Assembly: GCA_024275415.1 (NCBI GenBank)
Contig: JAJRZD010000017.1
Span: 75,058 to 107,057, forward strand
DNA from: an archaeon
GTDB lineage: Archaea; Asgardarchaeota; Thorarchaeia; Thorarchaeales; Thorarchaeaceae
Reading direction: 5' to 3'
Length of the DNA: 32,000 nt
Shown here: in pieces, positions 9,980 through 32,000 of the stretch
Numbering within the stretch: the first letter of the stretch is position 1
Layout of the letters: every line of letters begins with the position of its first letter
The notes under the pieces: generated by a model
The model's database searches: none
What the model saw: the letters and a program-made list of their open reading frames with translations, nothing else
Told to the model about the DNA's origin: nothing
Made by a program: the position numbers and the translations under genes

Positions 9980-10703
9980 GGGTGTGTCACTGGATGAGAT
10001 CGAGGTCTGCTTGCAACCTGTCGTACGCCTGCTTCCAAGGAGGCTCGACAGGACGCTTGGGGCATTGCTGTTGCCCAGACAGATATCGGTACTTCATGGT
10101 GCCGAACGGGCTCCTCTGAGTATTATTGCTCACGGAGTCACTGTGTCCAGTCTTCGTCAGAAAAAGGACGCTCGTGTTGTGTTCCTTGACAGTGGTAGCA
10201 ACTACAAACCTAGAACCATCAGGAACCTGTGTAAGATGATGGGCATTTCAGGGGACGATATCAAGCGGATCGTTGTGGGAAAAGTACTTGACCTTTACAA
10301 CCTTGAGCGGATGGTCGCGCAAGTCAAAGGTATGCATGACGTTACAGTGGTCATTCTTGACAATCTGACCTCCACCCTTAACAAATCATTTCCTCCCGGA
10401 AGCAAAGGACGACAGAGGCAGTTATTCCAGACCCTAGAAGATTTCAGGGATCTAGTGAACGAGATCGGATGTCACTTGCTCATCACTGACCATTCTTCTG
10501 TTGACTGGAACTCTGGTGCTAGAACTCCCGTCGGAGGAAATGTATTAGCCCATGCTGTCGACACTCTGGTGTCTGTGACCGTCATCGATTCACATGAACA
10601 TCTGGTTTCGCTCCTTGTGGAACAGACCCCGGTCACACCGATGCCAGCAGGATGTGTGCTGGTCGTAACAGTGGATGGGATACGCACAATAAAGGGGGCC
10701 TGA
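9966..10703 (+). CDS. RecA/Rad51-paralog-like protein with degenerate Walker A
   Basis: RecA-fold layout: ISVLHGAERAPLS (Walker A position, no GKT), VVFLDSGSNY, VVILDNL (Walker B), CHLLITDH and PVGGNVLAHAVDTLV (cf. RadA/RadB GG..LAH). SD GGAGGT. Confidence 0.7.
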   Translation: MLPIEGVSLDEIEVCLQPVVRLLPRRLDRTLGALLLPRQISVLHGAERAPLSIIAHGVTVSSLRQKKDARVVFLDSGSNYKPRTIRNLCKMMGISGDDIKRIVVGKVLDLYNLERMVAQVKGMHDVTVVILDNLTSTLNKSFPPGSKGRQRQLFQTLEDFRDLVNEIGCHLLITDHSSVDWNSGARTPVGGNVLAHAVDTLVSVTVIDSHEHLVSLLVEQTPVTPMPAGCVLVVTVDGIRTIKGA

Positions 10704-10711
10704 GAACAGAC

Positions 10712-11707
10712 ATGGGCGTGCGCAAATGGGACTTCATCCAGTGGGAACTTGCAGACCTTGACGAGATACGACCACGGGTAATGGCAATTGATACCCCGAA
10801 CTACATCACTCGACTGACACAATCGTATGTATATCATCAGAAACGGAGGGATGCAGAACGGATTCCCACGCAACATGTCTGGGCTGTCCTCGGGATAATA
10901 AGACAGGCACTACGACATGGCTTCACTCCGGTATTCGTCTTTGATGGGCCACCAGAAGCCTTGAAACGCCCTCCCAATCCTGAGCTGGTTTCGTCAGCGA
11001 CGGAGCTGTACAGGAAGTTTCGTGAACATAATGACATCTACAACTCGCGATTGGCAGAAGCACTCAACGATAGCAAGGCTATGCAATGGTATTTTGCAGT
11101 CAACCACTTGAAGGATCTGTTCAAGGCCATTGGCATCCCTTCATTCACCGCACCAAGTGAGGCAGAGATGGCAGCTGCGGTTATGGTAAGTGATGCAACT
11201 GCCGGCACTGTTGTCACGAATGACATCGATGCACTCCTTTTCGGGGCACCCCATGTGACCAGGGCAGTCAAGTTCGCTAAAAAACAGATCGAGAGGGTAT
11301 ACCTGAATGATGTGGCGGCAGGGCTCAAGACAGACCTAACTCGTCTCAGAGACCTTGCAATCCTATGTGGGTGTGACTTCTATCCGAGTGGCATCAAGGG
11401 CATCGGCCCCCGCAAGGGACTGGCTCTCCTCAATCAACACGGAAACCTAGAGAGAGTCCTAAAGGCAAGGGGACTCCCCCCAAATGAACGGGCAACAATC
11501 CTCGATGCTAGGGCAGTCTTCGACGAACCTATGTTCCTCCAGTTAGATGGAATCCCCTCCTCGATAAACCCCCCCTTAGTGTCCCGAGTCAGCGAACTGT
11601 TACGCCCCGTCATGGGGAAGGAACGTGCAAAGAAAACTACAGAAGAACTGGTCAAACTCTGGAAAGAGTTCGGTCGAGAGCAAGTCACATTGGAGAGGTG
11701 GACATAG
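10712..11707 (+). CDS. fen: flap endonuclease FEN1/XPG family nuclease with C-terminal PIP box
   Basis: ATG 10712 gives MGV. All seven acidic active-site positions are present (AIDT, VFDG, SEAE, NDID, GCDF), with H3TH GIKGIGPRKG. C-terminal QVTLERW fits the archaeal PIP box QxxLxxW. Confidence 0.9.
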   Translation: MGVRKWDFIQWELADLDEIRPRVMAIDTPNYITRLTQSYVYHQKRRDAERIPTQHVWAVLGIIRQALRHGFTPVFVFDGPPEALKRPPNPELVSSATELYRKFREHNDIYNSRLAEALNDSKAMQWYFAVNHLKDLFKAIGIPSFTAPSEAEMAAAVMVSDATAGTVVTNDIDALLFGAPHVTRAVKFAKKQIERVYLNDVAAGLKTDLTRLRDLAILCGCDFYPSGIKGIGPRKGLALLNQHGNLERVLKARGLPPNERATILDARAVFDEPMFLQLDGIPSSINPPLVSRVSELLRPVMGKERAKKTTEELVKLWKEFGREQVTLERWT

Positions 11708-11904
11708 TGGACAGGCGTATGGTTCTCCCCGAAGATGCATTGAACTCTCCTATTATCGAGTCTGTGTCAAGTCCTTGTGTCGCCTGCATACACTATACCT
11801 ACTTTGGTTGTACTCTTGGACACCCTTGCGCTAGAAAGGTCGTATGGAACGCAATCCAGAGGAGGATCGATTCAAATGAAAAAGAACAAGACCGAACTAT
11901 TTGA
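11698..11904 (+). CDS. small Cys-rich putative metal-binding protein (CX2CX7CX5C)
   Basis: 68 aa, with Cys codons at 11776, 11785, 11809 and 11827. The start is uncertain (GTG 11698, GTG 11707 or ATG 11719). Confidence 0.55.
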   Translation: MDIVDRRMVLPEDALNSPIIESVSSPCVACIHYTYFGCTLGHPCARKVVWNAIQRRIDSNEKEQDRTI

Positions 11905-12022
11905 TATCAGGCAAGAATATGGGACAGTGCTGAGAAAGCATATGCATAGTTCAGGCACTATCACCCAAAACACCCGGACGGTGAGAGTGGCATCTAGCAT
12001 GAGGGTGGAGGTGGACGAATGA
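11876..12022 (+). CDS. possible 48-aa hypothetical protein
   Basis: ATG 11876 follows GAGGAGG and fills the gap before xpf, with an ATGA overlap at 12019-12022. No recognisable motif. Confidence 0.3.
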   Translation: MKKNKTELFDIRQEYGTVLRKHMHSSGTITQNTRTVRVASSMRVEVDE

Positions 12023-12762
12023 GTATCGCAGACGACATCATCATCAATGACTTGGAGCTTGAGATGATCATCAGGGACTGTCCTCAGAACAGGATCATTT
12101 ACGATTCACGAGAGAGCTCAGACTACATCACAAAGCTTCAGGCAATCCTTGTCAACGAGGGGCTTGAGTGGGAGCGGATAATGCTGCCTATTGGGGACTA
12201 TATAGTCAATGGGACAGTGATTGAGCGGAAGACCCCAGAGGATTTTTTGAACTCGATTTATCCTGTTCCGCGTCTGAATAACCAGTTGGTTCATATGTCA
12301 AGGAATTGTGCAGAGTCCGTCATTGCTATCATCGGTAATCCCTGGGCCGCCACTGGACAAGATCCAGTACGAGAAGCCATCGTTTCATCCGCGCTCGCGA
12401 GTATCTGGAAACGGAGGGCCGCTGATGGTGTTAGAGGGATTGTCATCCCCCAAGTGTTCTTGCCTCCTGATGCCGACAGGAGGTTCGCACTTTGGCTGAA
12501 AGCGCTCAGTAGGAAGGAGCCGGTCAGAGAGCTCAAGTTGAGCAGAGGTGCGACAAGTGGTGGAAACCAGTTAGTGCGGACTGTGTCAACTGTGCCCGGA
12601 TGGGGTGTTGAGCTGTCCCGAAGAGCATTGGAAGCGTTCGGTACACTCAAGATGCTGATTGACGCGTCTCCCTCGGATTTGAGCGAGCGTATTGATAATG
12701 TTGGATCAGCCAAGGCTAAGATATTCCATGAATTCTTCAGAAGGCCTTACAATAATAGTTAA
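12019..12762 (+). CDS. xpf: short-form XPF/ERCC4 (Mus81/Hef-type) structure-specific nuclease with HhH2 domain
   Basis: GDYIV...ERKTPED (GDY plus ERKx3D) and RLNNQL. Tandem HhH motifs STVPGWGVELS and IDNVGSAKA. SD GGAGGTGG. Confidence 0.88.
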   Translation: MSIADDIIINDLELEMIIRDCPQNRIIYDSRESSDYITKLQAILVNEGLEWERIMLPIGDYIVNGTVIERKTPEDFLNSIYPVPRLNNQLVHMSRNCAESVIAIIGNPWAATGQDPVREAIVSSALASIWKRRAADGVRGIVIPQVFLPPDADRRFALWLKALSRKEPVRELKLSRGATSGGNQLVRTVSTVPGWGVELSRRALEAFGTLKMLIDASPSDLSERIDNVGSAKAKIFHEFFRRPYNNS

Positions 12763-14752: not shown

Positions 14753-15343
14753 ATGGACATCCAAACACTGGTTCTGGTCAACCTGTTCTTATCCATCCAG
14801 CTCACGCCGCTTGTACTTGTGAGCGTGACCATAATCAGGGGAGTCCTTCTGCTACGAGGTCGGAAACGGGAGTTTGAGGACTGGACGAGAAACCCGTTGA
14901 TGGCGGTACTGTCTATCATCTTCCTTCCGGGAACATTGATCTACATAGGGATACGCTACGCCATCACGAGGCTGGCTCGAATCAGGGTTGACCGCATCAG
15001 CGGGTCAAGCACCTACGGAGAGGTCAACCTCTTTCTCGTCGTCGAAGATCCCCCAAGCCTTGGAATCGTCCTTGTCGCCCTTTATTCGACCTTAGTCCTG
15101 ACAGTCTTCGTAGCACTTACTCTTCTCGTGTTGCCCTTGGCACTAGTGCCCAATCTACCACTCTCGGTTCTCCTCTGGTATGTGGGAGTGGGCACTTTCT
15201 ACAATGCATCCGTCCGCAGCGGTGACGCAAGTCTTGTCCTTTCCTCGCTTCGGGACAACCCACGACGAGGAGCGCTAGAGCTTGTCGCATTCATCGCATT
15301 GCTATACATACTCCAAACACAACTCGTGGTGATGATCCTATGA
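14753..15343 (+). CDS. membrane protein resembling M50-like/zincin membrane peptidases but lacking HExxH
   Basis: Likely ATG 14753; the ORF track starts at 14711. IFLPGTLIYIGIRYAITRLARIRV aligns with the family pattern FLPGTxxHELSHxxxxxLxGxxV with H/E/H replaced, and a later VRSGD matches the PSxxD-like motif. ATGA overlap with the giant gene. Confidence 0.55.
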   Translation: MDIQTLVLVNLFLSIQLTPLVLVSVTIIRGVLLLRGRKREFEDWTRNPLMAVLSIIFLPGTLIYIGIRYAITRLARIRVDRISGSSTYGEVNLFLVVEDPPSLGIVLVALYSTLVLTVFVALTLLVLPLALVPNLPLSVLLWYVGVGTFYNASVRSGDASLVLSSLRDNPRRGALELVAFIALLYILQTQLVVMIL

Positions 15344-18300
15344 AACGCACGCATATCATCCGGATATTCAACGTCAGAGGTACCCGACAAGTAATGGTCA
15401 CTATTGTTGCTATGTTCCTCTTTGTCAACTTTGCTGGCTCTTTGTTCGCACAAGTACCACTGACCGGACATGCTTCAGCCGAGGGGGTGAATGACCACTA
15501 CCCACTGGAATCAACATCCTTCATCCCTTCGGCATCACTCGGAACACCTGCAAGAGTTGGGGAGTATATCATTCTGCGCTACACTGGCCAAAGCACGCCA
15601 AGCAGGGCTACATCTCTTGAGAGTCTGATGGTATCATGGGGGATGATTACCACCACCTATGACGTTACTGATGTCATGGGAAACCCAGAGGTCTTGAGAG
15701 ATGCCCCTGCAATCATTATCGATGGTAGTGTTGGTTCGGACCAAGGGATTGCCATTCCACGAAGCGTCATCATCGCGCTCATTCAGGCTGACAGACCTGT
15801 CATTCTCCTAGGCAATGCGAGCTGGCTCGTTCCAGCTCTGTCTGGGCACAAAGGTCCCCCCATCAAGACTGCTCCGGTGACGACACAGTTCTTTCCAGAT
15901 CACGGAGCAGTCTACTCGGTCTATCCGAACAACATCACGGACGGAGCAACTCTCACCTCTGAGTCATTGACATTACCGATTAATCCTGTCCAGACTGAAT
16001 ATTCTAGACTGGTCAACCTGACATCGAGCAGCAATCCGTCTGTTCTTCCGGTACTCCAGTATCTCTCTTACCGGCTTGACACATTCATCGTGGGATTGGG
16101 AGATCCCCTTCTCTGGACTACAGACGGAGAGATGTTGCTTGAGAATATCATTGCCTACGCCACTACCCTATCAGAATCACCGACAAGCGTGGCGATAGGG
16201 GACACACAATATTATGACACAGTTTCAGGAGGACTTGCCTACGGTCATGTCCCCGAGGTGAAAAACACATACTATGCGGTTCATATGGCATATGACCTAC
16301 TGAGTCCGTCTGAGTTCTCAACATGGGCCCTTCAGAGAGAATCCGTTGTATTCTCCATCCTTTCTGACCTATATGTGGATGAGGGATCCGTTTCTGGTTT
16401 CAAGAAGAACAGATATGCTACAGGGACAGACCTTGTATCGACTGCACAGGGACTCTGGGTCATGGAAACTATGGGACTTGCTTCTTATTTTGTAGAGGCA
16501 GAAGTCATCTCGTATCTCTCCAACGCCCAAGACGCGGATGGTGGGTTTGCAAACGATGTGACGACAACATACCTTGTGACAGAAGCATTGGCGGTCTCTG
16601 GATCGCTTTCGACCGTGAACACCGCCAATCTCATCTTCTGGCTGCACGAGTGCCAGGTCAAATCTGCTGACAGCGGGGACATAGCCACTTGGGGTGGCTT
16701 TGGCAAGAATCCGACAGACGGGAACCCCTCATCGCTCTACACCTTCCAAGGGCTTCTAGCCCTGCAGTTCCTGAATGAGGGACACGACGACCTCAAGACA
16801 GTAGAATGGTTATGGAACCGGATGAATGGTGATGGCTCGTTTGATAATACGATTTCTGACGGTTCAGACCTCATTGTAGGTACTGCAAGTGCCATTGGTG
16901 CGCTGGAACTGTTCTCTGTGCTTGATACAGGGAACAAGTCACAGAGCCTTGGGTGGCTTGCGAACAAGCAACTCCCCTCTGGCGGCTTTGGGAATAACGA
17001 TGCAGATATCGTAGGAAGGACAAAGGACACCGCATACGTGGCCTTGAGCCTTGCGGTTCTTGGGGAGAGCGCGAACCCAATTGCATCGTCCATCATGTCA
17101 TTCATTAACACAATAGAACATGAGGCAGGGTTCGATGGCATGAGGATCATCCCCTCTTTGATGTGGGGTTATTATCTCGGCACCGCAGCAAGGTACAGTC
17201 ACGCGTCAGGCAGCGTCAACATGACCGATCTTGAGAGATACCTTCTGCGATTGACCGACATGAGCATCTATCCGCCATGGTCCAATATCTCAGCATATAT
17301 CACACCAGAATACAGCATAAACCAGTACTGGATGAAGAGCGTATGGACATATCTCTTCGGTGTCGGGATGGCTAATATCACTGGGGTTCAACTTACAAGC
17401 ACAGACTACATCGCCACCTACCTTGTTCAGCAACAGGACTCGTCTGGTCACTTCAAGCCCTACATCTATCCTAGCACACCACACATGCAATACTCGGTCG
17501 CTGCCGTAGAGGCACTCTATCTTCTAGACGCGCTAGATCTCATGTCTTATCGGGCACAGTTGGAATCTGCTGTTCTTGCCGAGTATGCAGCCGGCTCGTG
17601 GTCGGGTATTGGCTGGACACTTGAGCCATTGGCGGGAAACCAACCAGTCATAGATTGGCTCTCCACTCGTGCAGCAGCCCGGTTAGGCATCCTCAACACC
17701 ACGATGGCTGCCGAGATCGCATCATCAGTAATTGGACGACTTCAGTACACAGACCTGTGGGCGTTATCACGTGACGTGGCATCTCTATCTCTTCTTGACT
17801 CCATATTCTCCTCTGACTATCTTGGATACGTCAACAAATCCCAAGTTTTGGATGCATTACGTTCGTCTAGCTTACGTACCACCGGTTGGTACAACACGAC
17901 GTCAGTGTGGCAACCTCTATTCACATCGGGTGTTCTAGAGATGGTTTCGCAGCTGGGACTGCGAACGAATCTCACAGATGCGTTTGGTTCACGAATCACA
18001 GCCACACTGGCGTCACCACCCATTGTCGGGAACAACCTCGATATCGATGTGAACATCGAATCATCCCAGAACAATCATTCCATCTATGTCTACGCCTTTG
18101 GTACTTGGACACTGTTCGAGAATGTGACAAATACAGATACGCTTATTCTCACTGTCCCTGCTGATGCATCGATGCTGGGCCCCCAAGACATCTCGATTAT
18201 GCTATGGGACACTGGGCAGTCCCGTGCTTACGGTCTGGTTCCTACTACGGTCAGCAGTAGCCTGACAGGGAGCATGGTTCTCGATGAAACAATGTTGCTG

Positions 18301-21300
18301 ATGGGCGATAATGTGAATGGCACTGTCACATGGTTCCTACAGGACTCGATTGATGCAGGATTGACCAATATCACAGTCAAGCTCGGTGATCCCCCGACGT
18401 ACAAACAGTGGTACTACACTGATGTGAGCCCGTTCTCATTCTCGGTGCCCACAACTGATTTTGGTGCGGGAACCTACAACCTGACGGTCACGCTTGAAAA
18501 GGACTATTGCGCAACGCTTGTCCTTCAACAGGAGGTCATTATAGATGTGCCAGTTGAGGTCTATTTCCAGACCAATGCCACATTGTCGGGACATGTCCTT
18601 GAGCAGAGTACGATACCGTTTGACCTTCTATTCGTTGGGAACGACAGTCAGGCAGTAGGACAATCCGTGACTCTCATCATCACAGACGAGTACTCGACTG
18701 TTGTGTACACTGATAGCATGGTTTCTACTCCGGGTACGGACAATTTCTTGTGGACGCCATCACAACGAGGGAATTACACATTCACTCTCTCTACTGAGCG
18801 CAACGGCACGATTGAAGCGACACAGACCAGTGGTTTCATCGAGATAAGTGAGGATTCTGCCCTGACATGGTACAACGACGGGACACACGAGCAATATTCC
18901 AATGTCACACTGACAGCATACCTCTCCGGAGAAACTGGGGGTTCACTTGCCGGGAGGAGTGTCCGTGTCATCATCATGTCTCCTTCGTCCTCAACAGTCA
19001 TCGATACTGTATTGACCACGAACTCGACAGGGCATGTATCTATCGATCTCTATCTAGCCGAGAATGGCTTCTACACTCTCAGATGCGAATATGCAGGAGA
19101 GTATCTGATATCACCGACGTTCTCACTGTCCACGATCAACTCGTTCTCCAATACCAGTATCACCCTGTCAGGCGTTGCACCTGAGGGATTGGTGAACCAG
19201 ACATGGGAGATTGCTGCAGAACTGGTCGATTCGCAAGGACTCCCGCTATTTGGGAAGAACGTCACAATCACTATCACGTATCTACCTTCAACTACCGTAT
19301 ATCAAGCAACTCTGACGACGAATGCCACCGGTCACGTATCGCTCCAATGGACATTTCCTGCTCATGGAGCGTATTCCGTCAAGGCAGTGTTTGCAGGCAC
19401 AGCATCACTTCTTGCAAGCAACGTTACAGCCCTCTCGGATCTGTACACACCATCCTCACCTTCTATCACAGCTACATCATCTTTTGAGGTAGGAATCCTA
19501 GGATGGATTCAAGTCTTGGTTGAGGATCATGACGCGAATTCCTTGAACGGTGTGAATCTCTCTTTCGTCGTCAGAGACCCTCTTGATACTGTTATCTATT
19601 CAGCGACAGGCACCACTGTGAATGGACTATACAATTTCACGTTTTTGCCAACAATGAGAGGCGTGAACAGTTACGAGGTTTCGATTGACCGCCAAGGCTG
19701 GATAGAAGGTTCATTCATTGCAGGAACCATCAGGGTGTACGAACAGGTGCAGGTCGTGTTACAGCTTGATGCGCCACCGATAGCAGTAGGCTCTGGAACC
19801 CTGACAATAACAGTATTGGATTCAAGCGGCAACCCAATCCCGTCGTTAACCCTGACGACCGTGAGTACGCTTGACGGGACAATGATTCTTAATGTCACAG
19901 CCATTACTGACGGCAATGGTCAGGTCACCCTGTTATTGAATTATAATGCCATTGGAGCACTCTACATAGCAGTGGACATACCACAGCAGTCATGGCTCTA
20001 TGAGTCACACGTTTCAGATGGCTGGACAGTCCTAGGCCAGACAACACTTGGTATCCCACACAACGGCCTTCCGATTGACCAGGGCACGACCATCGGGTAC
20101 ACTGTCACTCTTTCTGATTGGATGGACAATCCGCTTGCGGGAGGGGATATTACCATCACGATCGAGTTCTCCAATGGCACTCTACTGCGAACCATTGCAC
20201 GGGTGACAGGCACGGACGGAACCTGTGCCTTTGGTCAGACCTATGACCTAGTAGGCGATTTCGTCGTACGTGCATCGTATTCAGGTACTGGGTTGAACGC
20301 TTCTTCTGAATCGTTCATCATTCAACGTGTGACGGTGACTCCTGACCTTGTACTGCTTAGCGATCCGACTGTCCAACTTGGTGACACCGCTGAGTTCCTA
20401 GTTGCCTTGAAAGACAACTATGGTGCGTTCATTGCTGGGAGGTCAATCACCCTATCGGTCAGCATGGACGGGATCACTATCTACGAAACAGTCACTCTAT
20501 CCGAGTCACAGACAATTGCAATACATTGGACTCCGACAGCACGAGGGCTAGCCACGGTGACTCTGCTGCATCAAGGAGATGTGTACTATCTTGAGAACTC
20601 GACCTACAAGACGATATCAGTGATGGAAGTTGCGACAGGTGAAGTCGTCTTCGAAAATGATGTCATCGACCTCTTTGATTCAGTCGTCATCAACTATACA
20701 CTAACGTGCAATGACGCATTAAACGTCACGATCGATTTCACGATACTGGACGCTGATATGTTCCCAATCTGGACACAAACAGTGGTCACTGATGCGAACG
20801 GGCTTGCGACTGTTAACTATATTGCCGATGACGCTTACGGAGTCCTCTCAGTGCTTGTGGCTCCTTCCATCGACCAGTTCCTGATGGGTGCAGATATACA
20901 GGCACTATTCACGGTCAAAACGACTGGAACCCCTGATGTCATATTGGAACCCTACCCTGCTATCGTCTTGAAGCCTGTCAACATCACCGTTAGTGTGACA
21001 GACCAGCTTGGTGGTGGGATTGATGGAATCACTGTCAGTGTTTCTGCTTACTTCCAAGGACAGAAAGTGGATCTTGGCGGTTTCGCTGGCACTGCACGAG
21101 TCGATATCATCGATGGCATTGGCATTGTCACCTTCGTCCCGGAGAGGGCTGGTGCGTACAGCTTCTCGGTTTCCTACTCTGGTGGCAAGATAGTCTACTC
21201 ATTCGATGCAAGCGGTTTTGTGAGGAATGTACATTCTCCCACCTACCTCACATTCGTGTTACTCACTTCAGACCTAGAAACGGGGAACACTTTGAATGCG

Positions 21301-23160
21301 ACAGTGAAGCTTACTGACTATGAAGGAAACCCGATGTCGTTCATGACAGTCCATCTCACTCTGGAAGGTGTGGAATCCACCGATTTCTTGACAGACGAGA
21401 ACGGCGAGGTCTTCTATTCCTCTCTTATGGCATCCGAAGGAACCAAGACCCTTACAGTATCATTTGATGGCTACACAGTATACCTAGCATCATCAAATGC
21501 AACCGAGATTCAAGTCCGTACAGGTACATCAATCACAGCGTTGGTCACGAGTAATTGGGTTCCCATCGCAGCTTCCCTTCCTGTCACGATTTCTGTCCTC
21601 CTTGAGGATGATTCAGGAACCCCACTTGAAGGACGCACGGTCACCATGATGGTCTATCATAACGGGACAGACCTCCTGTGGACTGACAATATCATCGCCT
21701 TTGGACAGGATCCTGAGATACTAAATGTCACACTTCCACTGATGGGCAACTATACCCTCATCCTCGCCTTTGCTGGTACCGATTCCTATTATCCATCATC
21801 TTCAGCCATTGACATATTCGTTATTGGGACAAGTAACATAGAGTTAGAGTTCCCGAACGATATGGATAGATCTGATAACGTTACTGGGATTATCACTTTC
21901 TTGGACGAGATCTCATCACCATTAGTGGTTGAAGGACTAGACATTGAGATTAGCCTGACAGGAACCAACCTTGACAGCCGCTTGGTCTTCGACGAACAGT
22001 CAATCCAACTGCGACTGATGGGACTGGAAGTCGGCAATTACACATTGGATGTTGTCCTACATGAGTCAGCCGTTCGACTGGGTTCTAGCATGTCCTTCGA
22101 GTTCACGGTGTACGCCAATTCCACACTTAGCGTGTCCAACGAGACCCTGAGCGGTATCACGTACGAGGAACACTGGGTCGAACTGCTGCTGGTCGACTCA
22201 CTCGGCGAAACGATAGAGGATGCGACACTGTTCATCAGCCTCTGGGATCCAGATGGTAAGGAGATATACGGCAACATTGTCACATCAGTCACGAAGGTTC
22301 ATTCCGACGATGGTCTTGTGTTGATCACATGGGTTCCTTCAAAAGCGGGGAACTACACCCTTAAGGCACGCTACGATGGGACAGAGTTTACCAAGGGGAC
22401 TGAGTTCGTCCTCACTAGCTATGCTCGTCACGCTACGATAATGGATGCATCGGGTCCGGGGTCAATCCAATTTCCCGACATACCTACTATCTCGATCTCC
22501 TTACAGTCAGGAAACAAAAAGATTGCAAATGCCCCAATCACAGTCCGACTTGTCTTGGGCAATTCGAGTGTGACTAGCTATCTCGTCACGACGGACATAT
22601 GGGGGCGTGCATCATGCCAGCTCGCAGATATCGTGGCAGGGAACCTAACAGTGGTCATCGAGTATGCCGGGAACGACCAGTATATGCCCTCGGAGAGAAT
22701 CGTGTCAATCATTGTGTCCCCCGAGGTGGATGTGGACATCAGCACCACCGGAAACCACTTTCTTGGTGGAAACATCACGATTCACATCTCTGTGGATTTG
22801 CTCGGCGTTCAGGACACGTTCGAAGGCAAGGCTGTTGTTGAGATCAGTCCTCAGTTCGAAGGTGGAGAGGCAGTGCTCAAGACACGTCAGATTGGGTCTC
22901 AAGAGTCGTGGGATATGCAGTTCATTCCATATGCCGAGGGCGAATACGTCATAACCGTCAAGTTGAGCGGTATCCCAGTTATCGGCTCGTTCTACAAGAA
23001 CTTCACACTTACAATCACTCAGCCGGTTCTACAGATAGAGATGGAACCAAGCACAACTCCGGTCATTGGAAGTGGGGTGGCTCTGAGCATCCTAGGCATC
23101 GCCCTTCGAAAGAGGCTTCATGGTGCGGTTGATACAATCGTAGGCGAATGGGACTCCTAG
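15340..23160 (+). CDS. 2606-aa cell-surface protein: signal peptide, prenyltransferase/squalene-cyclase-repeat barrel, Ig-like stalk, C-terminal TM anchor
   Basis: Uninterrupted 7.8-kb ORF with an N-terminal hydrophobic signal, QW/PFTB-type repeats and T/V/S-rich Ig-like repeats. Ends in PVIGSGVALSILGIAL-RKR. Confidence 0.85.
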   Translation: MKRTHIIRIFNVRGTRQVMVTIVAMFLFVNFAGSLFAQVPLTGHASAEGVNDHYPLESTSFIPSASLGTPARVGEYIILRYTGQSTPSRATSLESLMVSWGMITTTYDVTDVMGNPEVLRDAPAIIIDGSVGSDQGIAIPRSVIIALIQADRPVILLGNASWLVPALSGHKGPPIKTAPVTTQFFPDHGAVYSVYPNNITDGATLTSESLTLPINPVQTEYSRLVNLTSSSNPSVLPVLQYLSYRLDTFIVGLGDPLLWTTDGEMLLENIIAYATTLSESPTSVAIGDTQYYDTVSGGLAYGHVPEVKNTYYAVHMAYDLLSPSEFSTWALQRESVVFSILSDLYVDEGSVSGFKKNRYATGTDLVSTAQGLWVMETMGLASYFVEAEVISYLSNAQDADGGFANDVTTTYLVTEALAVSGSLSTVNTANLIFWLHECQVKSADSGDIATWGGFGKNPTDGNPSSLYTFQGLLALQFLNEGHDDLKTVEWLWNRMNGDGSFDNTISDGSDLIVGTASAIGALELFSVLDTGNKSQSLGWLANKQLPSGGFGNNDADIVGRTKDTAYVALSLAVLGESANPIASSIMSFINTIEHEAGFDGMRIIPSLMWGYYLGTAARYSHASGSVNMTDLERYLLRLTDMSIYPPWSNISAYITPEYSINQYWMKSVWTYLFGVGMANITGVQLTSTDYIATYLVQQQDSSGHFKPYIYPSTPHMQYSVAAVEALYLLDALDLMSYRAQLESAVLAEYAAGSWSGIGWTLEPLAGNQPVIDWLSTRAAARLGILNTTMAAEIASSVIGRLQYTDLWALSRDVASLSLLDSIFSSDYLGYVNKSQVLDALRSSSLRTTGWYNTTSVWQPLFTSGVLEMVSQLGLRTNLTDAFGSRITATLASPPIVGNNLDIDVNIESSQNNHSIYVYAFGTWTLFENVTNTDTLILTVPADASMLGPQDISIMLWDTGQSRAYGLVPTTVSSSLTGSMVLDETMLLMGDNVNGTVTWFLQDSIDAGLTNITVKLGDPPTYKQWYYTDVSPFSFSVPTTDFGAGTYNLTVTLEKDYCATLVLQQEVIIDVPVEVYFQTNATLSGHVLEQSTIPFDLLFVGNDSQAVGQSVTLIITDEYSTVVYTDSMVSTPGTDNFLWTPSQRGNYTFTLSTERNGTIEATQTSGFIEISEDSALTWYNDGTHEQYSNVTLTAYLSGETGGSLAGRSVRVIIMSPSSSTVIDTVLTTNSTGHVSIDLYLAENGFYTLRCEYAGEYLISPTFSLSTINSFSNTSITLSGVAPEGLVNQTWEIAAELVDSQGLPLFGKNVTITITYLPSTTVYQATLTTNATGHVSLQWTFPAHGAYSVKAVFAGTASLLASNVTALSDLYTPSSPSITATSSFEVGILGWIQVLVEDHDANSLNGVNLSFVVRDPLDTVIYSATGTTVNGLYNFTFLPTMRGVNSYEVSIDRQGWIEGSFIAGTIRVYEQVQVVLQLDAPPIAVGSGTLTITVLDSSGNPIPSLTLTTVSTLDGTMILNVTAITDGNGQVTLLLNYNAIGALYIAVDIPQQSWLYESHVSDGWTVLGQTTLGIPHNGLPIDQGTTIGYTVTLSDWMDNPLAGGDITITIEFSNGTLLRTIARVTGTDGTCAFGQTYDLVGDFVVRASYSGTGLNASSESFIIQRVTVTPDLVLLSDPTVQLGDTAEFLVALKDNYGAFIAGRSITLSVSMDGITIYETVTLSESQTIAIHWTPTARGLATVTLLHQGDVYYLENSTYKTISVMEVATGEVVFENDVIDLFDSVVINYTLTCNDALNVTIDFTILDADMFPIWTQTVVTDANGLATVNYIADDAYGVLSVLVAPSIDQFLMGADIQALFTVKTTGTPDVILEPYPAIVLKPVNITVSVTDQLGGGIDGITVSVSAYFQGQKVDLGGFAGTARVDIIDGIGIVTFVPERAGAYSFSVSYSGGKIVYSFDASGFVRNVHSPTYLTFVLLTSDLETGNTLNATVKLTDYEGNPMSFMTVHLTLEGVESTDFLTDENGEVFYSSLMASEGTKTLTVSFDGYTVYLASSNATEIQVRTGTSITALVTSNWVPIAASLPVTISVLLEDDSGTPLEGRTVTMMVYHNGTDLLWTDNIIAFGQDPEILNVTLPLMGNYTLILAFAGTDSYYPSSSAIDIFVIGTSNIELEFPNDMDRSDNVTGIITFLDEISSPLVVEGLDIEISLTGTNLDSRLVFDEQSIQLRLMGLEVGNYTLDVVLHESAVRLGSSMSFEFTVYANSTLSVSNETLSGITYEEHWVELLLVDSLGETIEDATLFISLWDPDGKEIYGNIVTSVTKVHSDDGLVLITWVPSKAGNYTLKARYDGTEFTKGTEFVLTSYARHATIMDASGPGSIQFPDIPTISISLQSGNKKIANAPITVRLVLGNSSVTSYLVTTDIWGRASCQLADIVAGNLTVVIEYAGNDQYMPSERIVSIIVSPEVDVDISTTGNHFLGGNITIHISVDLLGVQDTFEGKAVVEISPQFEGGEAVLKTRQIGSQESWDMQFIPYAEGEYVITVKLSGIPVIGSFYKNFTLTITQPVLQIEMEPSTTPVIGSGVALSILGIALRKRLHGAVDTIVGEWDS
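16390..17530 (+). repeat. prenyltransferase/squalene-oxidase-type (QW) protein repeats, probable (alpha/alpha)6 barrel
   Basis: YLSNAQDADGGF, WLHECQ...WGGFG, WLWNRMNGDGSF, WLANKQLPSGGFG and YLVQQQDSSGHF, each followed by a T/S-x-x-A-x-x-A-L helix. Confidence 0.75.
17990..23040 (+). repeat. tandem Ig-like (Big-type) domains, about 15-17 of ~100 aa
   Basis: Recurrent T(D/N)xxGx(V/A) motifs (TNSTGHV, TNATGHV, TDGNGQV, TDANGLA, TDENGEV, TDIWGRA). At least 9 GxYx(L/V)xxx(Y/F)xG-type strands (e.g. GFYTLRCEYAG, GAYSVKAVFAG, GNYTLKARYDG). The domain count is estimated from length. Confidence 0.75.
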
Positions 23161-27443: not shown

Positions 27444-27527
27444 TCTCCATCAAGAAGGAACATCAGGAAAGGAGCTTGGTATCGGTTGGAGGATGCGAGT
27501 TTCCGTGAGATTGAGGAAGGTCTAAGG

Positions 27528-30500
27528 ATGCGTGTGAACCGTCGATCTGGTATCGTATTATGTGCCGTATTGATAACTGTGATGTTGTCGTTCCAGCTGG
27601 TCGCTGCTACTGCGTGGACTGCTGATGCTGCGAATGATGGCCCTGGGATCGTCATACTCCAGATGTCTGATGACCCTGACACTGATTGGGCTGTCCGTGA
27701 CCTGTTGAACAGGTTATCAGCCTTTATAGTGGACGACCTGTACTTCCCTGACCGTGTGCGAGTGGTCAAGACAAGCGACCCCTATGTGGCTACCCGACTG
27801 GAGGGGGAGATTGTCATCTATGCCTCCCACGGTGGTCCACTGGGGATCGTCACAGGGAAACGACTGACCCTCTGGGACACGATGGCCGACATCGTGATGG
27901 ACTCGCCTGCAGTCCTGCACCTGTTCATGGCGTGTTCAAGCAAGGACATCTTGCGCTACGGTGACGAGGAGTCAGGGAAGAAGCTGTACACGGTAACGGG
28001 GTCACGTCCTGCCGAGGTCACCAACGTGGAGATCACGGCAATGGTGATGCTTGCCCTTGGGTTGGACGCAGACTATGTGGAACAGTACCGGACAGAGGAA
28101 CTGACCCGTGCGAAGTACCTGATACAGAACGGGATCAGTGTGCATATCATGGACTTCCAGCAGGTGGTATTGGACGAGATCGAGTACATCGACAACACCT
28201 ACTCAGACTCGTACACCAGCACACACCGGGTGTACAGGTATTCCGTCGAAACCACTATCTCAGGGTTAGGTGGGTTCTCAGACCTGCCGCTTGACCTTCA
28301 AGACATTATCGTGCATTATTATCGCCTCTACGTCGACCAAGACGGTGTGCCGACTCTCAGGAATCTTGAGGACTTGCGGATAACCTATACGAAGAACTAC
28401 TACTACGAGGCGTGGTGGGTCGTCGATGAAAACCCGCCCCCAGCAGACGACCCAGACCCTACACCACCTCCGAAGGACGAACCGCTCGCAGCCCCTGACC
28501 CCGGAGACCCGACACTGTTCTCCTCGACCTACGTGACTACAGCCGCTGCAACAAGCGGTCATTGGGAGTACGGACCCGACCAGTTCTCTGGGGGGACCTA
28601 TTCTGGAGTGGTCATCTACTCTGGTGACGGAAGTGACTGGGTCCAGGTCGTGGTCAACGTGACCGCAAGCGGTCCCACACTTGCATCTGACGGCAAGACG
28701 AACGTCGAATCGATATCCCTGAACCAGTATGGCGCTCGTGGTGTGTCTGTGTCCAAGCAGAAAGTGGACGGGGCCTGGCAGGAACCAGTTGTGACCCGGA
28801 ACCCATCCCGTACCGGTGGAGCATGGTCTGACCCTGCGGTCAAAGTGGACTACGAATATGATTCAAGCTGGCCACTGATGCCCGGGTACTCAGCAAAGAC
28901 TACAGGCTCACTCCGGTCCAATGGCGAATACCTCTATGTCACCGGCATCCCGACCGGCACAGGATGGCACGGCCCCTCCTTCGTCCGTACCCTTCCGTCA
29001 TACTTCAAGCTCAAGGACCTGGGCTCTTTCAGCGCGAACATGTCATTATACCATGCAGGCGTCAAGAGCAGGATGACATCGACCTTCGTGAACCTGTATG
29101 ACTCGAACAGGAAACTAGTCGTTGCCTTGCAGATGGCAGATGCTTGGGCATCCTACACAAAATGTTACTTACGAGTGACCTTCTACAAGGAGGATGGCAC
29201 ATATGCAGCACTAAAGTCTGGTTATGTCTACACTGACCTGAATGGCATTGCGACCTTGCGGTACGACCCATTGGTCGGAGTCTTCGCAGATGTCCCCGGA
29301 AAGAGCGAAACCCTCCTGTATGCACGAAACCAGGTCAACGAGGACCGCTTGATCAAGTACGTAGCCATCCAGAGCTACCGGTACTCGAGCTACTCCGAGC
29401 ATGATGAACGCATCTATAACATCCGGTTGGACTACGCAGGCTCCGAGTACACGGTGTTCCACGACACCGCCAATGACATGGACGAGTTCGTGAAGTCCCC
29501 CGACTTCCCCTACGGCTCTCGTTCGGACGGGATCTCTTGGCGGTGCCCTCTGGTCAGAGCTACATGAAGTTCACCTCCATCGCCACAGGTTCCGGTTGGC
29601 ACGGTCCCATGTACGTCCACACCCTCGACAGGCCCTTCCGCCTGTACCAACTGGAGGAGTTCTCCGTCATTGGACAGCTTGTCCAGAGTTCGAACACCAA
29701 CGGCAAGACCTACGTGGGCCTCTTCGACGAGAACAAACGCCTCGCCCTGCTGGTCTTCTGGGGCGACTCCTGGGTGGGGAGCAAGAAGGGGTACTTCAAC
29801 GTCTACTACTACCCCCAGAGCGGCGGTTACTATACGCAAGGCTCAGGGTACCTCTACTACTCCTTCACCAAGACGGGGAAGTTGTGGTGGGGCCCGTACC
29901 ATGGCGGTGACGGTGCCGTCTTCGCAAGCATCGACGGGGCAGGGTCATCGCAACCCATCGGGGAGGTGGAGAACGCCTCCCGGGTCATCAAGTACGTGGG
30001 GGTCCTGGGCTACCGCATGGACAGCTACACCCTGGTGGACATGCGCCTCCACGACGTCAACGTGGTCGCCGATTTGAACGAGCAAAATCCAAACTCGTCC
30101 ACACCACCGCCAACGCGGGACCCGCCCGCTGGGGAAACCCAATCCTCAGTGGACTACGATGGCACAAGTTCTTCACCTAAGGCTTCCATGATAAATGCAG
30201 ATGTTGATCTTTCGGCTGCATCTTTAAGGATAGCCACATTTTGGACCGGCTGGTGGCCTCTTCTCCACTTTGTTGTAGACGTTTCTATTGCGCCCGATCA
30301 AGTACCCGCGGGACATCCGGCAAAGCCTGCTGAAGGAAAACTAATTCATATTAGCGTTGCGAAGAATCTCTTTGGTATAACAGAAGACCAGCAAATTGAA
30401 ATACTCGGCGATGGTTCTTTCGGTCAGCCCTCTGATGAAATCCTTAACCAGCAAGTCGATTTATTAAGCGGTATCATGCTTGGATCTTTGAACTTGGCTT

Positions 30501-30901
30501 TGATTGGACTTGAGATTGCCTCATCAACCGGCAATGCACCAGCTGTAGCTAGCTTTATTGCTTCGACGGTCATTCTCACGTTGAGCTTTTTCGGTCTGGT
30601 GGATTGGTTCCAACAGAAAATGCTCGATGAGGGCAAGTGGACTCACTATGAATGTTTCCACCAATGGTTGATGATAGGTCTCGGAATTATCATTAACATG
30701 CTGATGGTTGGGGCATTATCCATGTTCCTCAATTTCATTGATCCACTGACACCAGTAGCAACGATTGCATTGGAGTGGGCAAGCGAGATGGCTCCTATTA
30801 GGACAATAGCTGCGGGAGCAAAGTTGGCTTTCTTCTACCTATTGGCTATGGCAATAACTAGCTTTTTACGTGCTCTGCGACACCTAATAGAATCATTCTA
30901 G
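27528..30901 (+). pseudogene. ~1124-aa secreted multidomain protein (clan CD peptidase-like domain, two beta-rich repeats, hydrophobic tip) split by a 1-nt frameshift at ~29536
   Basis: Signal peptide RVNRRSGIVLCAVLITVMLSFQLVAATAWTADA and dyad YASHG...FMACSS. ORFs 27486-29567 and 29537-30901 overlap in different frames inside the second repeat. Restoring one base at ATC TC- TTG joins them. Confidence 0.75.
28900..30070 (+). repeat. two tandem ~200-aa beta-rich (lectin/ConA-like?) protein repeats
   Basis: Shared motifs TG[TS]GWHGP (28953 and 29585), TLxxxFxLxxL, TxVxLxDxNxxL, SGYxY, VFA and RxIKYVxxxxYRxxSY. The fold assignment is a guess. Confidence 0.8.
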
Positions 30902-30923
30902 AAACACCCGGAGATGGTAAATC

Positions 30924-31463
30924 ATGGATACCATGGACATGTTCATAATCTATCTAGTAGGCATCATTCTAGTGAGCATTCCCAACCTTCTATTTCAGAG
31001 GGAGATATTTCGCTGCACACTACGCAAGAAATGGGGGCTCTCTCTCGCACCTAGTTCCAAGTTCGATGAGTTGGCCGCCCACACAGTATGCGGCGACCAT
31101 AAATGCCTGAAGAGATCAGCCATGATTTCCATCCCTTTACTGCTTTGCTCCATTGGTCTTCTTTTTTGGCCGAATATTCTCCATACTCCCTCCTCGCGGT
31201 ATGCGATACCTCTGATTCTATCTATCCTAGTACTCAACATCTTCATGCCACTTGTACGACTCTGTGTTGAGCGATGGGCTGACCCCGTTGAAAAGGCAAT
31301 GGATTTCATTAGGAGGTATGAGCAACGGCCACAAGATGGGATTCACAACACCGAGCTACAGACTCTTTTGAGCCGATTAGACATGACCGGAGAGGTGTTT
31401 CGCACAGCCTACGCGAAATTGAATGAGGATCAGAACACTCTTGATTCCGAACCGATTGGTTAA
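30924..31463 (+). CDS. hypothetical membrane protein, candidate immunity/partner of the upstream tip
   Basis: 179 aa, three hydrophobic segments and a charged C-terminal tail. Starts 22 nt after the upstream stop and has similarly low GC. Confidence 0.65.
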   Translation: MDTMDMFIIYLVGIILVSIPNLLFQREIFRCTLRKKWGLSLAPSSKFDELAAHTVCGDHKCLKRSAMISIPLLLCSIGLLFWPNILHTPSSRYAIPLILSILVLNIFMPLVRLCVERWADPVEKAMDFIRRYEQRPQDGIHNTELQTLLSRLDMTGEVFRTAYAKLNEDQNTLDSEPIG

Positions 31464-31482
31464 GTGATAGTGCTCAGACTAG

Positions 31483-31770
31483 CAATACCGCGGTTACTGG
31501 ACAAACGAGGATGCATTTTGGTTCTTGTGGAACTACGGCTCAGCGTATTTCATTGCTGGGGCCGGTGCCATAACAGCAGCAATGCTATTGCCCAAGATTA
31601 TTGGATCATCCGCAGCTCTTGCAATTGAATTCCTCGATGCTGCCAAAACTAGATTCGGCCCATTAACATACCTGCCTTCGTTTAGCATTCTGGCTTCAGC
31701 AACTATTTTAGGGATTGGGCTTGTTTTGTGGCTTACTGCTACGAGCGATTATGGATGGTACTGGTGGTAA
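31483..31770 (+). pseudogene. 5'-truncated orphan C-terminal tip fragment, distantly similar to the end of 27528-30901
   Basis: The frame opens after TAG 31480-31482 with no good start codon. RGYWTNEDAFWFLWNYG...ALAIEF parallels EGKWTHYECFHQWLMIG...TIALEW. The ORF track calls 31525-31770. Confidence 0.45.
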
Positions 31771-31844
31771 CCATGGTGAATGAGGAAGCGATATGGTTCA
31801 TGAAGGGGATGAAAGATGACAGCAAGTGAGATGGCGATCGTATA

Positions 31845-31909
31845 TACCGTTTATTGTAAATTGTACAACACTCTGGTGACCAAGGTTGTACAACTAACAA
31901 TGAACGGTA
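31845..31909. repeat. 65-bp imperfect palindrome (25-bp arms, 15-bp spacer)
   Basis: Left arm TACCGTTTATTGTAAATTGTACAAC (31845-31869) matches the reverse complement of 31885-31909 (TACCGTTCATTGTTAGTTGTACAAC) at 22/25. Confidence 0.9.
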
Positions 31910-31915
31910 AGGCAC

Positions 31916-32000
31916 ATGCCTATCGTCAATACGATTGACAAGCTCGACCAGCAGGACCCGAACTCGTCGACACCACGCCCAACGCAGGATTCGCCGGATG
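31916..32000 (+). CDS. start of an ORF (runs off the window) beginning with a second copy of the P/S/T linker, probable orphan cassette
   Basis: MPIVNTIDKLDQQDPNSSTPRPTQDSPD versus LNEQNPNSSTPPPTRDPP at 30074-30127: 12/18 aa and 39/54 nt identical. Confidence 0.6.
   Translation, partial: MPIVNTIDKLDQQDPNSSTPRPTQDSPD

What the first reader, a model, noticed from the sequence alone, without database searches (positions are those of the whole stretch)
27528..32000. Polymorphic-toxin-like locus with swappable C-terminal tips in an archaeon
Seen in sequence: a large secreted protein with signal peptide, His/Cys peptidase-like domain, two beta repeats, a P/S/T linker and a hydrophobic low-GC tip. 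A small membrane gene follows directly, then a truncated alternative tip (31483-31770), then a new ORF at 31916 that begins with a diverged copy of the same linker. Established: bacterial polymorphic toxin loci (CDI, Rhs, MafB) are arranged as full-length toxin + immunity gene + orphan tip/immunity cassettes. They are exchanged by recombination at a conserved junction and often carry autoprocessing proteases. Inference: this is an archaeal, possibly Asgard, version with membrane-active tips, or else an antigenic-variation cassette system. I do not recognise this architecture as a named family.
Basis: partly seen in the sequence, partly recalled or inferred. Interest (0 to 1): 0.88.

Follow-up and report, generated by a model that had tools for sequence, protein, structure and literature searches.

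The report
Swappable membrane-tail surface protein of Thorarchaeota
This is the main gene of a cassette system found only in Thorarchaeota (Asgard archaea): a large surface protein whose membrane-embedded tail, with a small partner gene, can be swapped for about 20 spare copies, laid out like bacterial toxin/immunity loci although its action is untested.

Summary
Window 27528-30901 encodes one ~1,130-residue exported protein: signal peptide, caspase/CHAT-like His-Cys domain, two lectin-fold repeats, a P/S/T linker and a 4-helix membrane tail.

A 3-TM partner gene follows (30924-31463). Then come the last third of another tail (31483-31770) and the start of a new cassette (31904-32000), where the contig ends.

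The rest of this genome holds about 20 more tail+partner cassettes on five other contigs. All DNA homology to the main gene stops within 100 nt of the linker.

Tail types that are spare copies here sit in the main gene of other Thorarchaeota. Tails and partners co-vary (permutation p<1e-4). The tail family was found in 27 of 76 genomes of one family and in none of about 225 genomes from 29 other Asgard families.

No part matches a named family or a known toxin fold, and toxicity, delivery and partner binding are untested. I read it as a new variant of polymorphic effector/immunity systems.

The scan had already found this system's spare arrays on other contigs of this genome (e1-5424397, e1-5445711). 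This window adds the expression locus.

The parts
27528..29567 (+). Main gene, 5' part (ORF1; an alternative TTG start lies at 27486). Contains the signal peptide (27528-27617), the caspase/CHAT-like domain (about 27636-28415, with His115 at 27828-27830 and Cys150 at 27933-27935), a Pro-rich spacer (28431-28496), a small beta domain, and lectin-fold repeat 1 (28806-29462). It ends at TGA 29565-29567 only because of the frameshift.
   Evidence: Homologues of 1,060-1,123 aa read straight through this point.
29531..29536 (+). Frameshift site: 2 extra nucleotides in 'atCTCTtgg' compared with five intact homologous genes.
   Evidence: DNA alignment. Protein homologues read ...DG(T/V/E)L(G/E/V)(V/S)PSGQSYM... 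across this point. An uninterrupted 1,040-aa frame is present in a same-genus genome (G161:C590).
29537..30064 (+). Main gene, 3' part (ORF2, -1 frame): lectin-fold repeat 2. The source annotation calls a 445-aa protein from ATG 29564.
   Evidence: (P0018).
30041..30166 (+). Conserved junction and P/S/T linker (MRLHDVNVVADLNEQNPNSSTPPPTRDPPAGETQSSVDYDGT). This is the recombination boundary: all nucleotide homology with the orphan cassettes ends at 30072-30169.
   Evidence: blastn, consensus of 60 junctions, coordinates.
30167..30901 (+). Variable tail. A 'neck' (helix plus 4-strand sheet with the invariant W..WP motif at 30239-30259 and a DLLG-like motif) is followed by a bundle of four TM helices (30455-30511, 30545-30601, 30674-30730, 30812-30868). 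The stop codon is at 30899-30901.
   Evidence: (model pLDDT 83.9). Sibling tails are 49-50% identical in other genomes.
30924..31463 (+). Partner gene (179 aa), 22 nt after the tail's stop codon. It has three TM helices, a basic first loop and a ~60-aa C-terminal soluble domain shared with two other partner genes of this genome.
   Evidence: A search of 5.8 billion proteins found only the protein itself.
31483..31770 (+). 5'-truncated orphan tail: only the last ~95 codons, with two TM helices and a W-rich end. No partner gene follows.
   Evidence: matches the C-terminal third of P0074, P0062, P0100 and P0078.
31846..31908 (.). Palindromic dispersed repeat with 24-nt arms. It abuts the start of the next cassette. 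The same arrangement occurs in front of the sister cassettes on C110 and C102.
31904..32000 (+). Start of the next orphan cassette: an open frame TVRHMPIVNTIDKLDQQDPNSSTPRPTQDSPD, a diverged junction plus linker, which runs off the contig end.

Best explanation
This is the expression locus of a Thorarchaeota-specific polymorphic effector/partner system.

Shown:
- One Sec-exported protein carries a caspase/CHAT-like domain, two lectin-fold domains and, after a conserved junction (…LVDMRxHDxNVVxDL..H(D/N)PN.P…), a hypervariable module made of a small beta 'neck' and a 4-TM helix bundle.
- A small polytopic membrane gene follows directly and co-varies with the tail.
- The genome keeps about 20 start-less tail+partner cassettes. 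Their 5' ends are copies of the resident main gene's last codons, and their homology to it stops at the linker.
- The same tail types occupy the main position in other genomes.

Inferred:
- Homologous recombination at the junction replaces the expressed tail and partner with a stored pair.
- The lectin domains bind surface glycans of neighbouring cells.
- The tail and its cognate partner bind each other inside the membrane, as a lock and key.
- A tail that meets a membrane lacking its partner damages it (depolarising or pore-like action). The pair would then work as toxin and immunity, or as a lethal kin-discrimination marker.
- The His-Cys domain may cut at the conserved (D/N)-P linker.

In this genome the main gene carries a 2-nt insertion. 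The system may therefore be switched off here, or the assembly may be wrong at that point.
For: - Full-length intact homologues exist only in Thorarchaeota.
- The junction is sharp: the right-hand ends of 13 orphan homologies fall at 30072-30169, while the left-hand ends range from 29655 to 30041.
- About 20 cassettes lie on C39, C110, C102, C53 and C96.
- The body is 57-74% identical between genomes, against about 20% for the tail.
- Orphan tails here are 65%, 43% and 42% identical to the main-gene tails of P0001, P0004 and P0009.
- Their 5' flanks match the resident main gene (82-85%) rather than those foreign genes (46-67%).
- Tail/partner covariation: 9 of 12 partner-similar cassette pairs are also tail-similar among 780 pairs; 0 of 10,000 permutations reach that number.
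- A partner gene lies within about 50 nt downstream of the main gene in all seven other loci examined.
- Extra partner-like genes without tails, and decayed tails (frameshifted or truncated), occur in the arrays, as in immunity-gene accumulations.
- Distribution is patchy, with 1 to at least 9 copies per genome.
- Lectin fold. CHAT-like fold with an invariant His/Cys pair.
Against: - No toxin fold or family was recognised in the tail.
- Glycine-zipper motifs are not enriched.
- The tails follow the positive-inside rule: 156 Lys+Arg in loops 1+3 against 42 in loop 2 plus the C-terminal tail. The region before TM1 is acidic. This is what one expects of a domain inserted into the producer's own membrane by the translocon, not of a toxin entering from outside.
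- No delivery machinery is evident.
- The three closest relatives of this window's tail have partners with no detectable similarity to the 179-aa partner here.
- The main gene is frameshifted.
Confidence: 0.55

Rival explanations
1. Non-lethal identity or adhesion system. The tail is simply the protein's polytopic membrane anchor. With its partner it forms a variable membrane complex that marks 'self', for example to gate cell-cell contact, fusion or syntrophic attachment, and kills nothing.
For: - The tails have the charge pattern of normal cis-inserted membrane proteins.
- No toxin fold was found.
- The lectin domains point to glycan-mediated contact.
- The partner co-varies with the tail.
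Against: In prokaryotes, silent arrays of paired cassettes plus surplus partner-only genes are so far known from toxin/immunity systems. Spare partners have no obvious use in a pure recognition system.
Confidence: 0.17
2. Surface or receptor variation to escape viruses or grazers: cassette switching changes an exposed part of a surface protein that viruses use as a receptor.
For: The silent cassettes with a conserved 5' junction resemble the pilE/pilS and vls type of antigenic variation. The acidic neck and the outer loops of the tail are exposed.
Against: The variable part is mostly buried in the membrane, while the large exposed lectin and protease domains are conserved. Antigenic-variation cassettes do not carry a co-varying partner gene.
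Confidence: 0.1
3. No switching. The 'orphans' are independent two-gene membrane operons (tail-like protein plus partner), expressed from internal starts such as the conserved Met of ...VDMRVHD.... They share a duplicated 3' gene segment with the big protein.
For: Gene callers annotate many of them as 280-400-aa proteins. A conserved in-frame Met (93%) lies in the junction. The tail family also occurs behind other bodies, for example fn3.
Against: - The 5' truncation points are nested, and the products would lack a signal peptide.
- The 5' flanks are homogenised to the resident main gene while the tails are shared across genomes.
- The same tail type occupies main and orphan positions.
- Several orphans are frameshifted or truncated.
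Confidence: 0.1

Closest known systems
Polymorphic toxin systems with orphan CT/immunity arrays (CdiA-CT/CdiI, Rhs-CT/RhsI, MafB/MafI), as defined by Zhang et al. 2012 (PMC3482391) and Ruhe et al. 2020 (PMC8019152); both taken from reference lists and my own knowledge
   Same: A conserved large exported body, a short conserved junction motif, a variable C-terminal module, a cognate small gene directly downstream, and arrays of promoter-less orphan cassettes that keep a stretch of 5' homology for recombination. Tail types are shared between genomes.
   Different: - No homology to any of these proteins: no FHA, YD, VENN or LXG elements, and no Pfam hit.
- The host is an archaeon with one membrane and only a Sec-type signal.
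- All tails belong to one hypervariable 4-TM family instead of many unrelated enzymatic toxins.
- Toxicity is not shown.
TspA/TsaI of the Staphylococcus aureus type VII secretion system (PMC9484751)
   Same: A polymorphic toxin whose C-terminal part acts on the membrane (depolarising). It is neutralised by a polytopic membrane immunity protein encoded downstream in strings of non-identical copies that evolve by homologous recombination.
   Different: TspA is an LXG protein exported by a T7SS in a bacterium. Its arrays hold immunity genes only, not tail+partner pairs. There is no sequence or fold similarity.
VARTIG module of Thermococcales (PMC8416519)
   Same: An archaeal, lineage-restricted locus: a large signal-peptide protein with a hypervariable C-terminal part, followed by small, mostly membrane proteins that track the variant. 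Its authors compare it to polymorphic toxin systems and note that no toxin is identifiable.
   Different: In VARTIG the variable part is an Ig domain, not a TM bundle. It has no arrays of 5'-truncated spare cassettes with a sharp junction, and no lectin or caspase-like domains. The two are not homologous.
Predicted archaeal polymorphic toxin systems (Makarova et al. 2019, mBio, PMC6509191)
   Same: The general idea that archaea encode PTS-like loci with toxin and immunity cassettes.
   Different: I could not read this paper (not held), so I cannot exclude that it lists this family. As quoted in PMC6393860, its signature elements are DUF4157 Zn-proteases, colicin D and PD-DExK nucleases, none of which is present here.
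IdsD/IdsE self-recognition pair of Proteus mirabilis (own knowledge)
   Same: Identity is set by a variable, membrane-associated region of a transferred protein and by a co-varying small polytopic membrane partner encoded next to it.
   Different: Ids depends on a T6SS, has no silent cassette arrays, and is not homologous.

Membership tests
Polymorphic toxin system (general definition) | Conserved exported N-terminal body with a variable C-terminal module demarcated by a conserved junction | tested here: met
   Body 57-74% identical against about 20% for the tail. The junction consensus has invariant H-D and D-L and a 92% (D/N)-P. The boundary in DNA is sharp.
Polymorphic toxin system (general definition) | Cognate immunity-type gene directly downstream that co-varies with the variable module | tested here: met
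   Covariation holds across 40 cassettes (9 of 12 partner-similar pairs are tail-similar; permutation p<1e-4). It is not demonstrable for this window's own pair.
Polymorphic toxin system (general definition) | Orphan cassettes with 5' homology to the main gene | tested here: met
   About 20 cassettes on five contigs, plus two in the window.
Polymorphic toxin system (general definition) | The variable module is a toxin, neutralised by the downstream protein | not testable with these tools
   No toxin family or fold was recognised. This needs expression and rescue assays.
Polymorphic toxin system (general definition) | Dedicated delivery route (T5SS, T6SS, T7SS and the like) | tested here: inconclusive
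   Only an N-terminal Sec-type signal peptide was found. The neighbouring genes are housekeeping genes and differ between genomes.
CDI (CdiA/CdiB/CdiI) or Rhs/YD proteins | FHA-type or YD repeats, VENN or PxxxxDPxGL junction, CdiB transporter | tested here: not met
   No Pfam or NCBIfam hit on either half of the protein. The junction motif is different.
Clan CD cysteine peptidases (caspase / CHAT / legumain-like) | His(-Gly) after strand 3 and (Ala-)Cys after strand 4 of a caspase-like alpha/beta sheet | tested here: met
   H115-G116 and A149-C150 are invariant in 14 sequences. Their positions follow E109-113 and E144-148. Structural match to SAVED-CHAT 8tl0_A: Z 11.2, rmsd 3.9, 160 residues.
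Clan CD cysteine peptidases (caspase / CHAT / legumain-like) | Recognition by a family profile (Pfam C13, C14, C25 or CHAT), or proteolytic activity | tested here: inconclusive
   No Pfam hit for 15 N-domains at E up to 10, and no hit with a profile against PDB sequences. ESM feature search gave a CHAT cluster at 0.87 only. Activity was not tested.
ConA-like lectin/glucanase fold | Jelly-roll fold similar to L-type lectins, GH16 enzymes or CBMs | tested here: met
   5ly8_A: Z 17.9, rmsd 3.3, 206 aligned. Other matches include VIP36, Emp46/47, calnexin and GH16 enzymes. Sugar binding was not tested.
Pore-forming colicin-type or glycine-zipper membrane toxins | Colicin pore-domain fold, or enriched GxxxG zipper motifs | tested here: inconclusive
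   No Foldseek match at E<=0.001, and only generic helix bundles (Z<10) with VIA-align. No Pfam Colicin hit in 80 tails. Zipper motifs are not above shuffled controls. ESM features place Colicin and PT-TG clusters at only 0.80-0.82.

The most novel reading that the evidence does not exclude
The tails are ordinary cis-inserted membrane modules that reach another cell only when membranes merge, through vesicles, protrusion contacts or cell fusion. Such transfer would preserve their topology. The system would then be an Asgard allorecognition checkpoint: the lectin domains make contact, and a tail without its partner punishes or aborts membrane sharing with non-kin. [quoted passage not shown]
Probability: 0.15. 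Interest if true: 0.9.

Novelty: new variant of a known kind. Interest (0 to 1): 0.72.

Why it matters
[quoted passage not shown] This locus offers a concrete, testable candidate: a lineage-specific surface protein with lectin and caspase-like domains, and a library of exchangeable membrane modules with cognate partners.

If the tails are membrane toxins, this adds a new effector/immunity family and a delivery problem without precedent, since the host has one membrane and no known injection machine. If they are identity markers, it would be a prokaryotic allorecognition system with stored alleles.

It also gives a clean natural example of junction-directed cassette exchange in archaea. The 80+ diverse tail/partner pairs are raw material for studying specific helix-helix recognition inside membranes.

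Tried and rejected
- Public reads: none was listed for window 28800-30900 or 29300-29800. The 2-nt insertion and any tail switching in the population could therefore not be checked, and read laying was not used.
- Complex prediction on the tail (alignment A2) with the 179-aa partner gave no verdict (score 0.00, controls not run). This is not evidence either way.
- Tail fold: Foldseek against PDB found nothing at E<=0.001. VIA-align wide gave only generic helix bundles, Z<10. The ESM Atlas shape search gave TM<=0.30.
- ESM feature search: the nearest named clusters (Tle1-like_C, PT-TG, DUF4225, Colicin) score 0.80-0.83, within the range that shuffled sequences reach. I keep them as a lead only.
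- Pfam on ORF1, ORF2, the partner, 15 N-domains and 80 tails, and NCBIfam: no meaningful or recurrent hit.
- A profile of the N-domain against PDB sequences returned only chance hits.
- Homologues of the 179-aa partner: only the protein itself was found.
- Glycine-zipper enrichment in the tails: none relative to shuffled controls.
- Makarova et al. 2019 (mBio) could not be read by DOI or by PMC id. Full-text searches for Thorarchaeota/Asgard with toxin, immunity or orphan terms found no description of this system.
- I looked for main genes with near-identical bodies but different tails in same-genus genomes. The bodies are only 57-66% identical there, so that test was not possible.
- I considered ORF1 and ORF2 as two genuine coupled genes (ATGA overlap at 29564-29567). 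I rejected this because homology to lectin repeat 1 and to the intact homologues continues upstream of that ATG in the -1 frame.


Full report
WHAT IS IN THE WINDOW. The window is the last 32 kb of a 107-kb contig (G000:C119:75058-107057) of a 3.5-Mb, 47% GC genome in 127 contigs. Between 27486 and 30901 lie two overlapping frames, ORF1 (693 aa) and ORF2 (454 aa, -1 frame). ORF1's homologues are single proteins of 1,060-1,123 aa, labelled hypothetical proteins of Candidatus Thorarchaeota or Promethearchaeia. They read straight through the point where the window changes frame (…DG(T/V/E)L.(V/S)PSGQSYM…). A DNA alignment with five of their genes shows that the window has two extra bases in 'atCTCTtgg', at about 29531-29536. 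A same-genus genome has an uninterrupted 1,040-aa frame covering both halves (G161:C590).

So this is one gene that is broken here, either by a real mutation or by an assembly error. No public run was listed, so I could not check which.

ANATOMY OF THE PROTEIN.
- Signal peptide: a basic n-region, a strongly hydrophobic core and an Ala-Thr-Ala site.
- N-domain: residues ~51-310 form an alpha/beta domain in which H115-G116 and A149-C150 are invariant in 14 sequences. They sit right after strands 109-113 and 144-148 of the AlphaFold model. That is the caspase-type arrangement. In a search of 48,161 PDB chains the only non-lectin row was the CHAT protease of a SAVED-CHAT filament (8tl0_A: Z 11.2, rmsd 3.9, 160 aligned, model residues 51-213). 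No sequence profile recognises the domain, so I call it caspase/CHAT-like, not a member of a named family.
- Lectin repeats: after a proline-rich spacer come two copies of a ConA-like lectin/glucanase jelly roll. The copies are 33% identical to each other (E 3e-21). The best structural match is the carbohydrate-binding module of phage J-1 Dit (5ly8_A: Z 17.9, 206 aligned), followed by VIP36, Emp46/47, calnexin and GH16 enzymes.
- Junction and linker: the last strand of repeat 2 runs into a junction that is conserved across the whole family, …LVDMR(I/V)HDINVVADL..H(D/N)PN.P… (60 sequences). Here it continues as the P/S/T linker NEQNPNSSTPPPTRDPPAG (30071-30150).
- Tail: modelled from 80 aligned tails at mean pLDDT 83.9. 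It has a helix plus four-strand 'neck' that carries the only invariant residues (W..WP), then four long hydrophobic helices (TM helices at 30455-30868).

DOWNSTREAM OF THE MAIN GENE.
- A 179-aa gene starts 22 nt after the stop. It has three TM helices, a basic first loop and a ~60-aa soluble C-terminus.
- The frame 31483-31770 matches only the last third of complete tails (P0074 residues 211-303 of 303, 37% identity, E 1.8e-16, and three others). It is a 5'-truncated tail without a partner gene.
- A 63-nt palindromic element (31846-31908) follows.
- From 31904 an open frame repeats the junction and linker and runs off the contig.

THE RESERVOIR. C39 (15.7 kb) is nothing but 9-10 cassettes in one orientation. 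C110 has six or seven near its end, C102 three, and C53 and C96 one each. Each cassette starts inside the end of lectin repeat 2 or inside the junction, without a signal peptide. It continues through a linker and a W..WP neck into a tail of 200-230 residues, and is followed within a few nucleotides by a small gene with 2-4 TM helices.

In DNA, the homology of 13 cassettes to the main gene starts anywhere between 29655 and 30041. It always ends between 30072 and 30169, in the linker. Several contigs begin or end inside this repeated junction (C102 position 1 corresponds to window 31873 at 94.5% identity). The assembly therefore probably broke at the repeats, and these contigs may belong to one or a few large arrays. 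That last point is inference.

The N-terminal half of the main gene is single-copy in the genome. Some tails are frameshifted or truncated, and at least eight partner-like membrane genes stand without a tail.

EVIDENCE THAT TAILS MOVE. Between genomes the body is 57-65% identical, lectin repeat 2 is 57-74% identical, and the tail is about 20% identical, which is background level. Yet orphan tails of this genome are 65%, 43% and 42% identical, over their full variable length, to the tails in the main genes of P0001, P0004 and P0009. The window's own main tail is 49-50% identical to the main-gene tail of P0019 and to an orphan tail in the genome that holds P0007 (L012). The 5' flanks of those orphans resemble the resident main gene (82-85%) and not the foreign main gene that carries the sibling tail (46-67%). 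This mosaic is what exchange at the linker, plus homogenisation of the flanks, would produce.

Other genomes have a main gene plus partner with zero, one or three orphans, placed downstream or divergently upstream, in unrelated genomic neighbourhoods.

TAIL AND PARTNER CO-VARY. I compared 40 cassettes from this genome and seven other loci, giving 780 pairs. Thirty pairs have similar tails, 12 have similar partners, and 9 have both. None of 10,000 label permutations reached 9. Partners diverge faster than tails (for example tail 65% with partner 52%, or tail 43% with partner 27%).

There is an exception that matters for this window. The three closest sibling tails of the window's tail have partners with the same 3-TM layout but no detectable similarity to the 179-aa gene, and that gene has no relative in 5.8 billion proteins. 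A complex prediction of the window's tail with its partner gave no verdict.

DISTRIBUTION. A profile of the 80 tails found matches in 27 of 76 genomes of one family-level group (13 of its genera), with 1 to at least 9 copies each. It found none in about 225 genomes of 29 other families of the phylum among those searched. In a 1.8-billion-protein library, 191 clusters match ORF2, and many of them are 280-420-aa orphan-type proteins. The tail also occurs behind other bodies, such as fn3 or with DUF2341-type inserts between the lectin repeats.

HOW IT PROBABLY WORKS. The shown facts are the architecture, the sharp junction, the main/orphan exchange of tail types and the tail/partner covariation. 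From these I infer a cassette-switching system in which the tail and its partner interact specifically within the membrane.

In prokaryotes, every well-studied case of paired cassettes stored in silent arrays is a toxin/immunity system. Membrane-depolarising polymorphic toxins with polytopic immunity proteins are known (TspA/TsaI; PMC9484751). So my leading reading is an effector/immunity or lethal kin-discrimination system, at about 0.55.

Against a simple 'secreted membrane toxin' reading:
- The tails obey the positive-inside rule: Lys+Arg 156 in loops 1+3 against 42 in loop 2 plus the C-terminal tail. The neck is acidic. This fits insertion into the producer's own membrane with the N-terminus outside.
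- No toxin fold, family or glycine-zipper signal was found.
- No delivery machine is visible.

This keeps open a non-lethal identity system, and a model in which tails reach other cells only through membrane merging. A role for the His-Cys domain in cutting the conserved (D/N)-P linker is speculation.

COMPARISON AND NOVELTY. The layout is that of polymorphic toxin loci (CDI, Rhs, MafB), but none of their defining domains or motifs is present. The nearest archaeal analogue, VARTIG of Thermococcales (PMC8416519), has a variable Ig domain and no truncated spare cassettes. Full-text searches found no description of this system. I could not read the 2019 survey of archaeal polymorphic toxins.

Two earlier notes of this scan (e1-5424397, e1-5445711) describe the spare arrays of this same genome on other contigs and reached the same general reading. 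I re-derived those arrays independently. This window adds several things:
- the expression locus and its domain structure;
- the frameshift;
- the junction mapping against the main gene;
- the main/orphan exchange;
- the covariation test;
- the topology argument;
- the phyletic range.

I classify it as a new variant of a known kind.

Noticed in passing
window 31846-31908: A palindromic element with 24-nt arms (ACCGTTTATTGTAAATTGTACAAC / GTTGTACAACTAACAATGAACGGT). Its ~46-80-nt core recurs about 20 or more times on many contigs at 85-95% identity. It sits directly in front of three sister cassettes (window, C110:79264, C102:1). It may be a MITE-like or structured-RNA repeat; its nature is unknown.
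   Followed up: partly
window 15340-23160 (+): A 2,606-aa protein with Big_1, MG2, MG4, filamin and prenyltransferase-like (thioester-domain-like) matches. This is an alpha-2-macroglobulin-like giant surface protein in an Asgard archaeon, flanked by small ORFs of unknown function.
   Followed up: no
window 26-12762 (+): A same-strand cluster of DNA repair/recombination genes: an XPD-like helicase C-terminus, a DEAD helicase, two RadA/Rad51-type paralogues, an XPG/FEN-type nuclease and an ERCC4 (XPF) nuclease, interleaved with three large proteins that have no Pfam match (779, 576 and 311 aa).
   Followed up: no
L006 (C102) 3436-4091; L007 (C53) 984-1727; L008 (C96) 526-1360 and 1985-2296: Pairs of small ORFs that look by eye like nucleotidyltransferase plus HEPN-type toxin-antitoxin modules are interspersed in the cassette arrays. 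I did not run them against Pfam. In a metagenomic relative, genes with precomputed NTP_transf_2/Polbeta and HepT-like hits sit next to a tail gene.
   Followed up: no
L005 about 10598-10800 (C110:82597-82800): A chimeric scar: a piece of the TM region of a C110:75692-type tail (…VVDASF..GVL.IGIGF…YQQRQQ.DA…VW) is fused in frame to the junction (VLGYRMDSYKLVDMRLHDINVV) of the next cassette. This is a footprint of an earlier recombination inside the array.
   Followed up: partly
window 27486-30070 versus the whole genome: The conserved body of the main gene is markedly GC-richer (0.54-0.61) than the genome (0.47) and than its own tail (0.455). The cause could be amino-acid composition, gene conversion or a foreign origin; I did not examine this.
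   Followed up: no
P0047, P0011, P0016 (relatives in other samples): The same tail family is attached to other bodies: an fn3-containing 470-aa protein, and main-type proteins with DUF2341 or PF21174-type modules inserted between the two lectin repeats.
   Followed up: no
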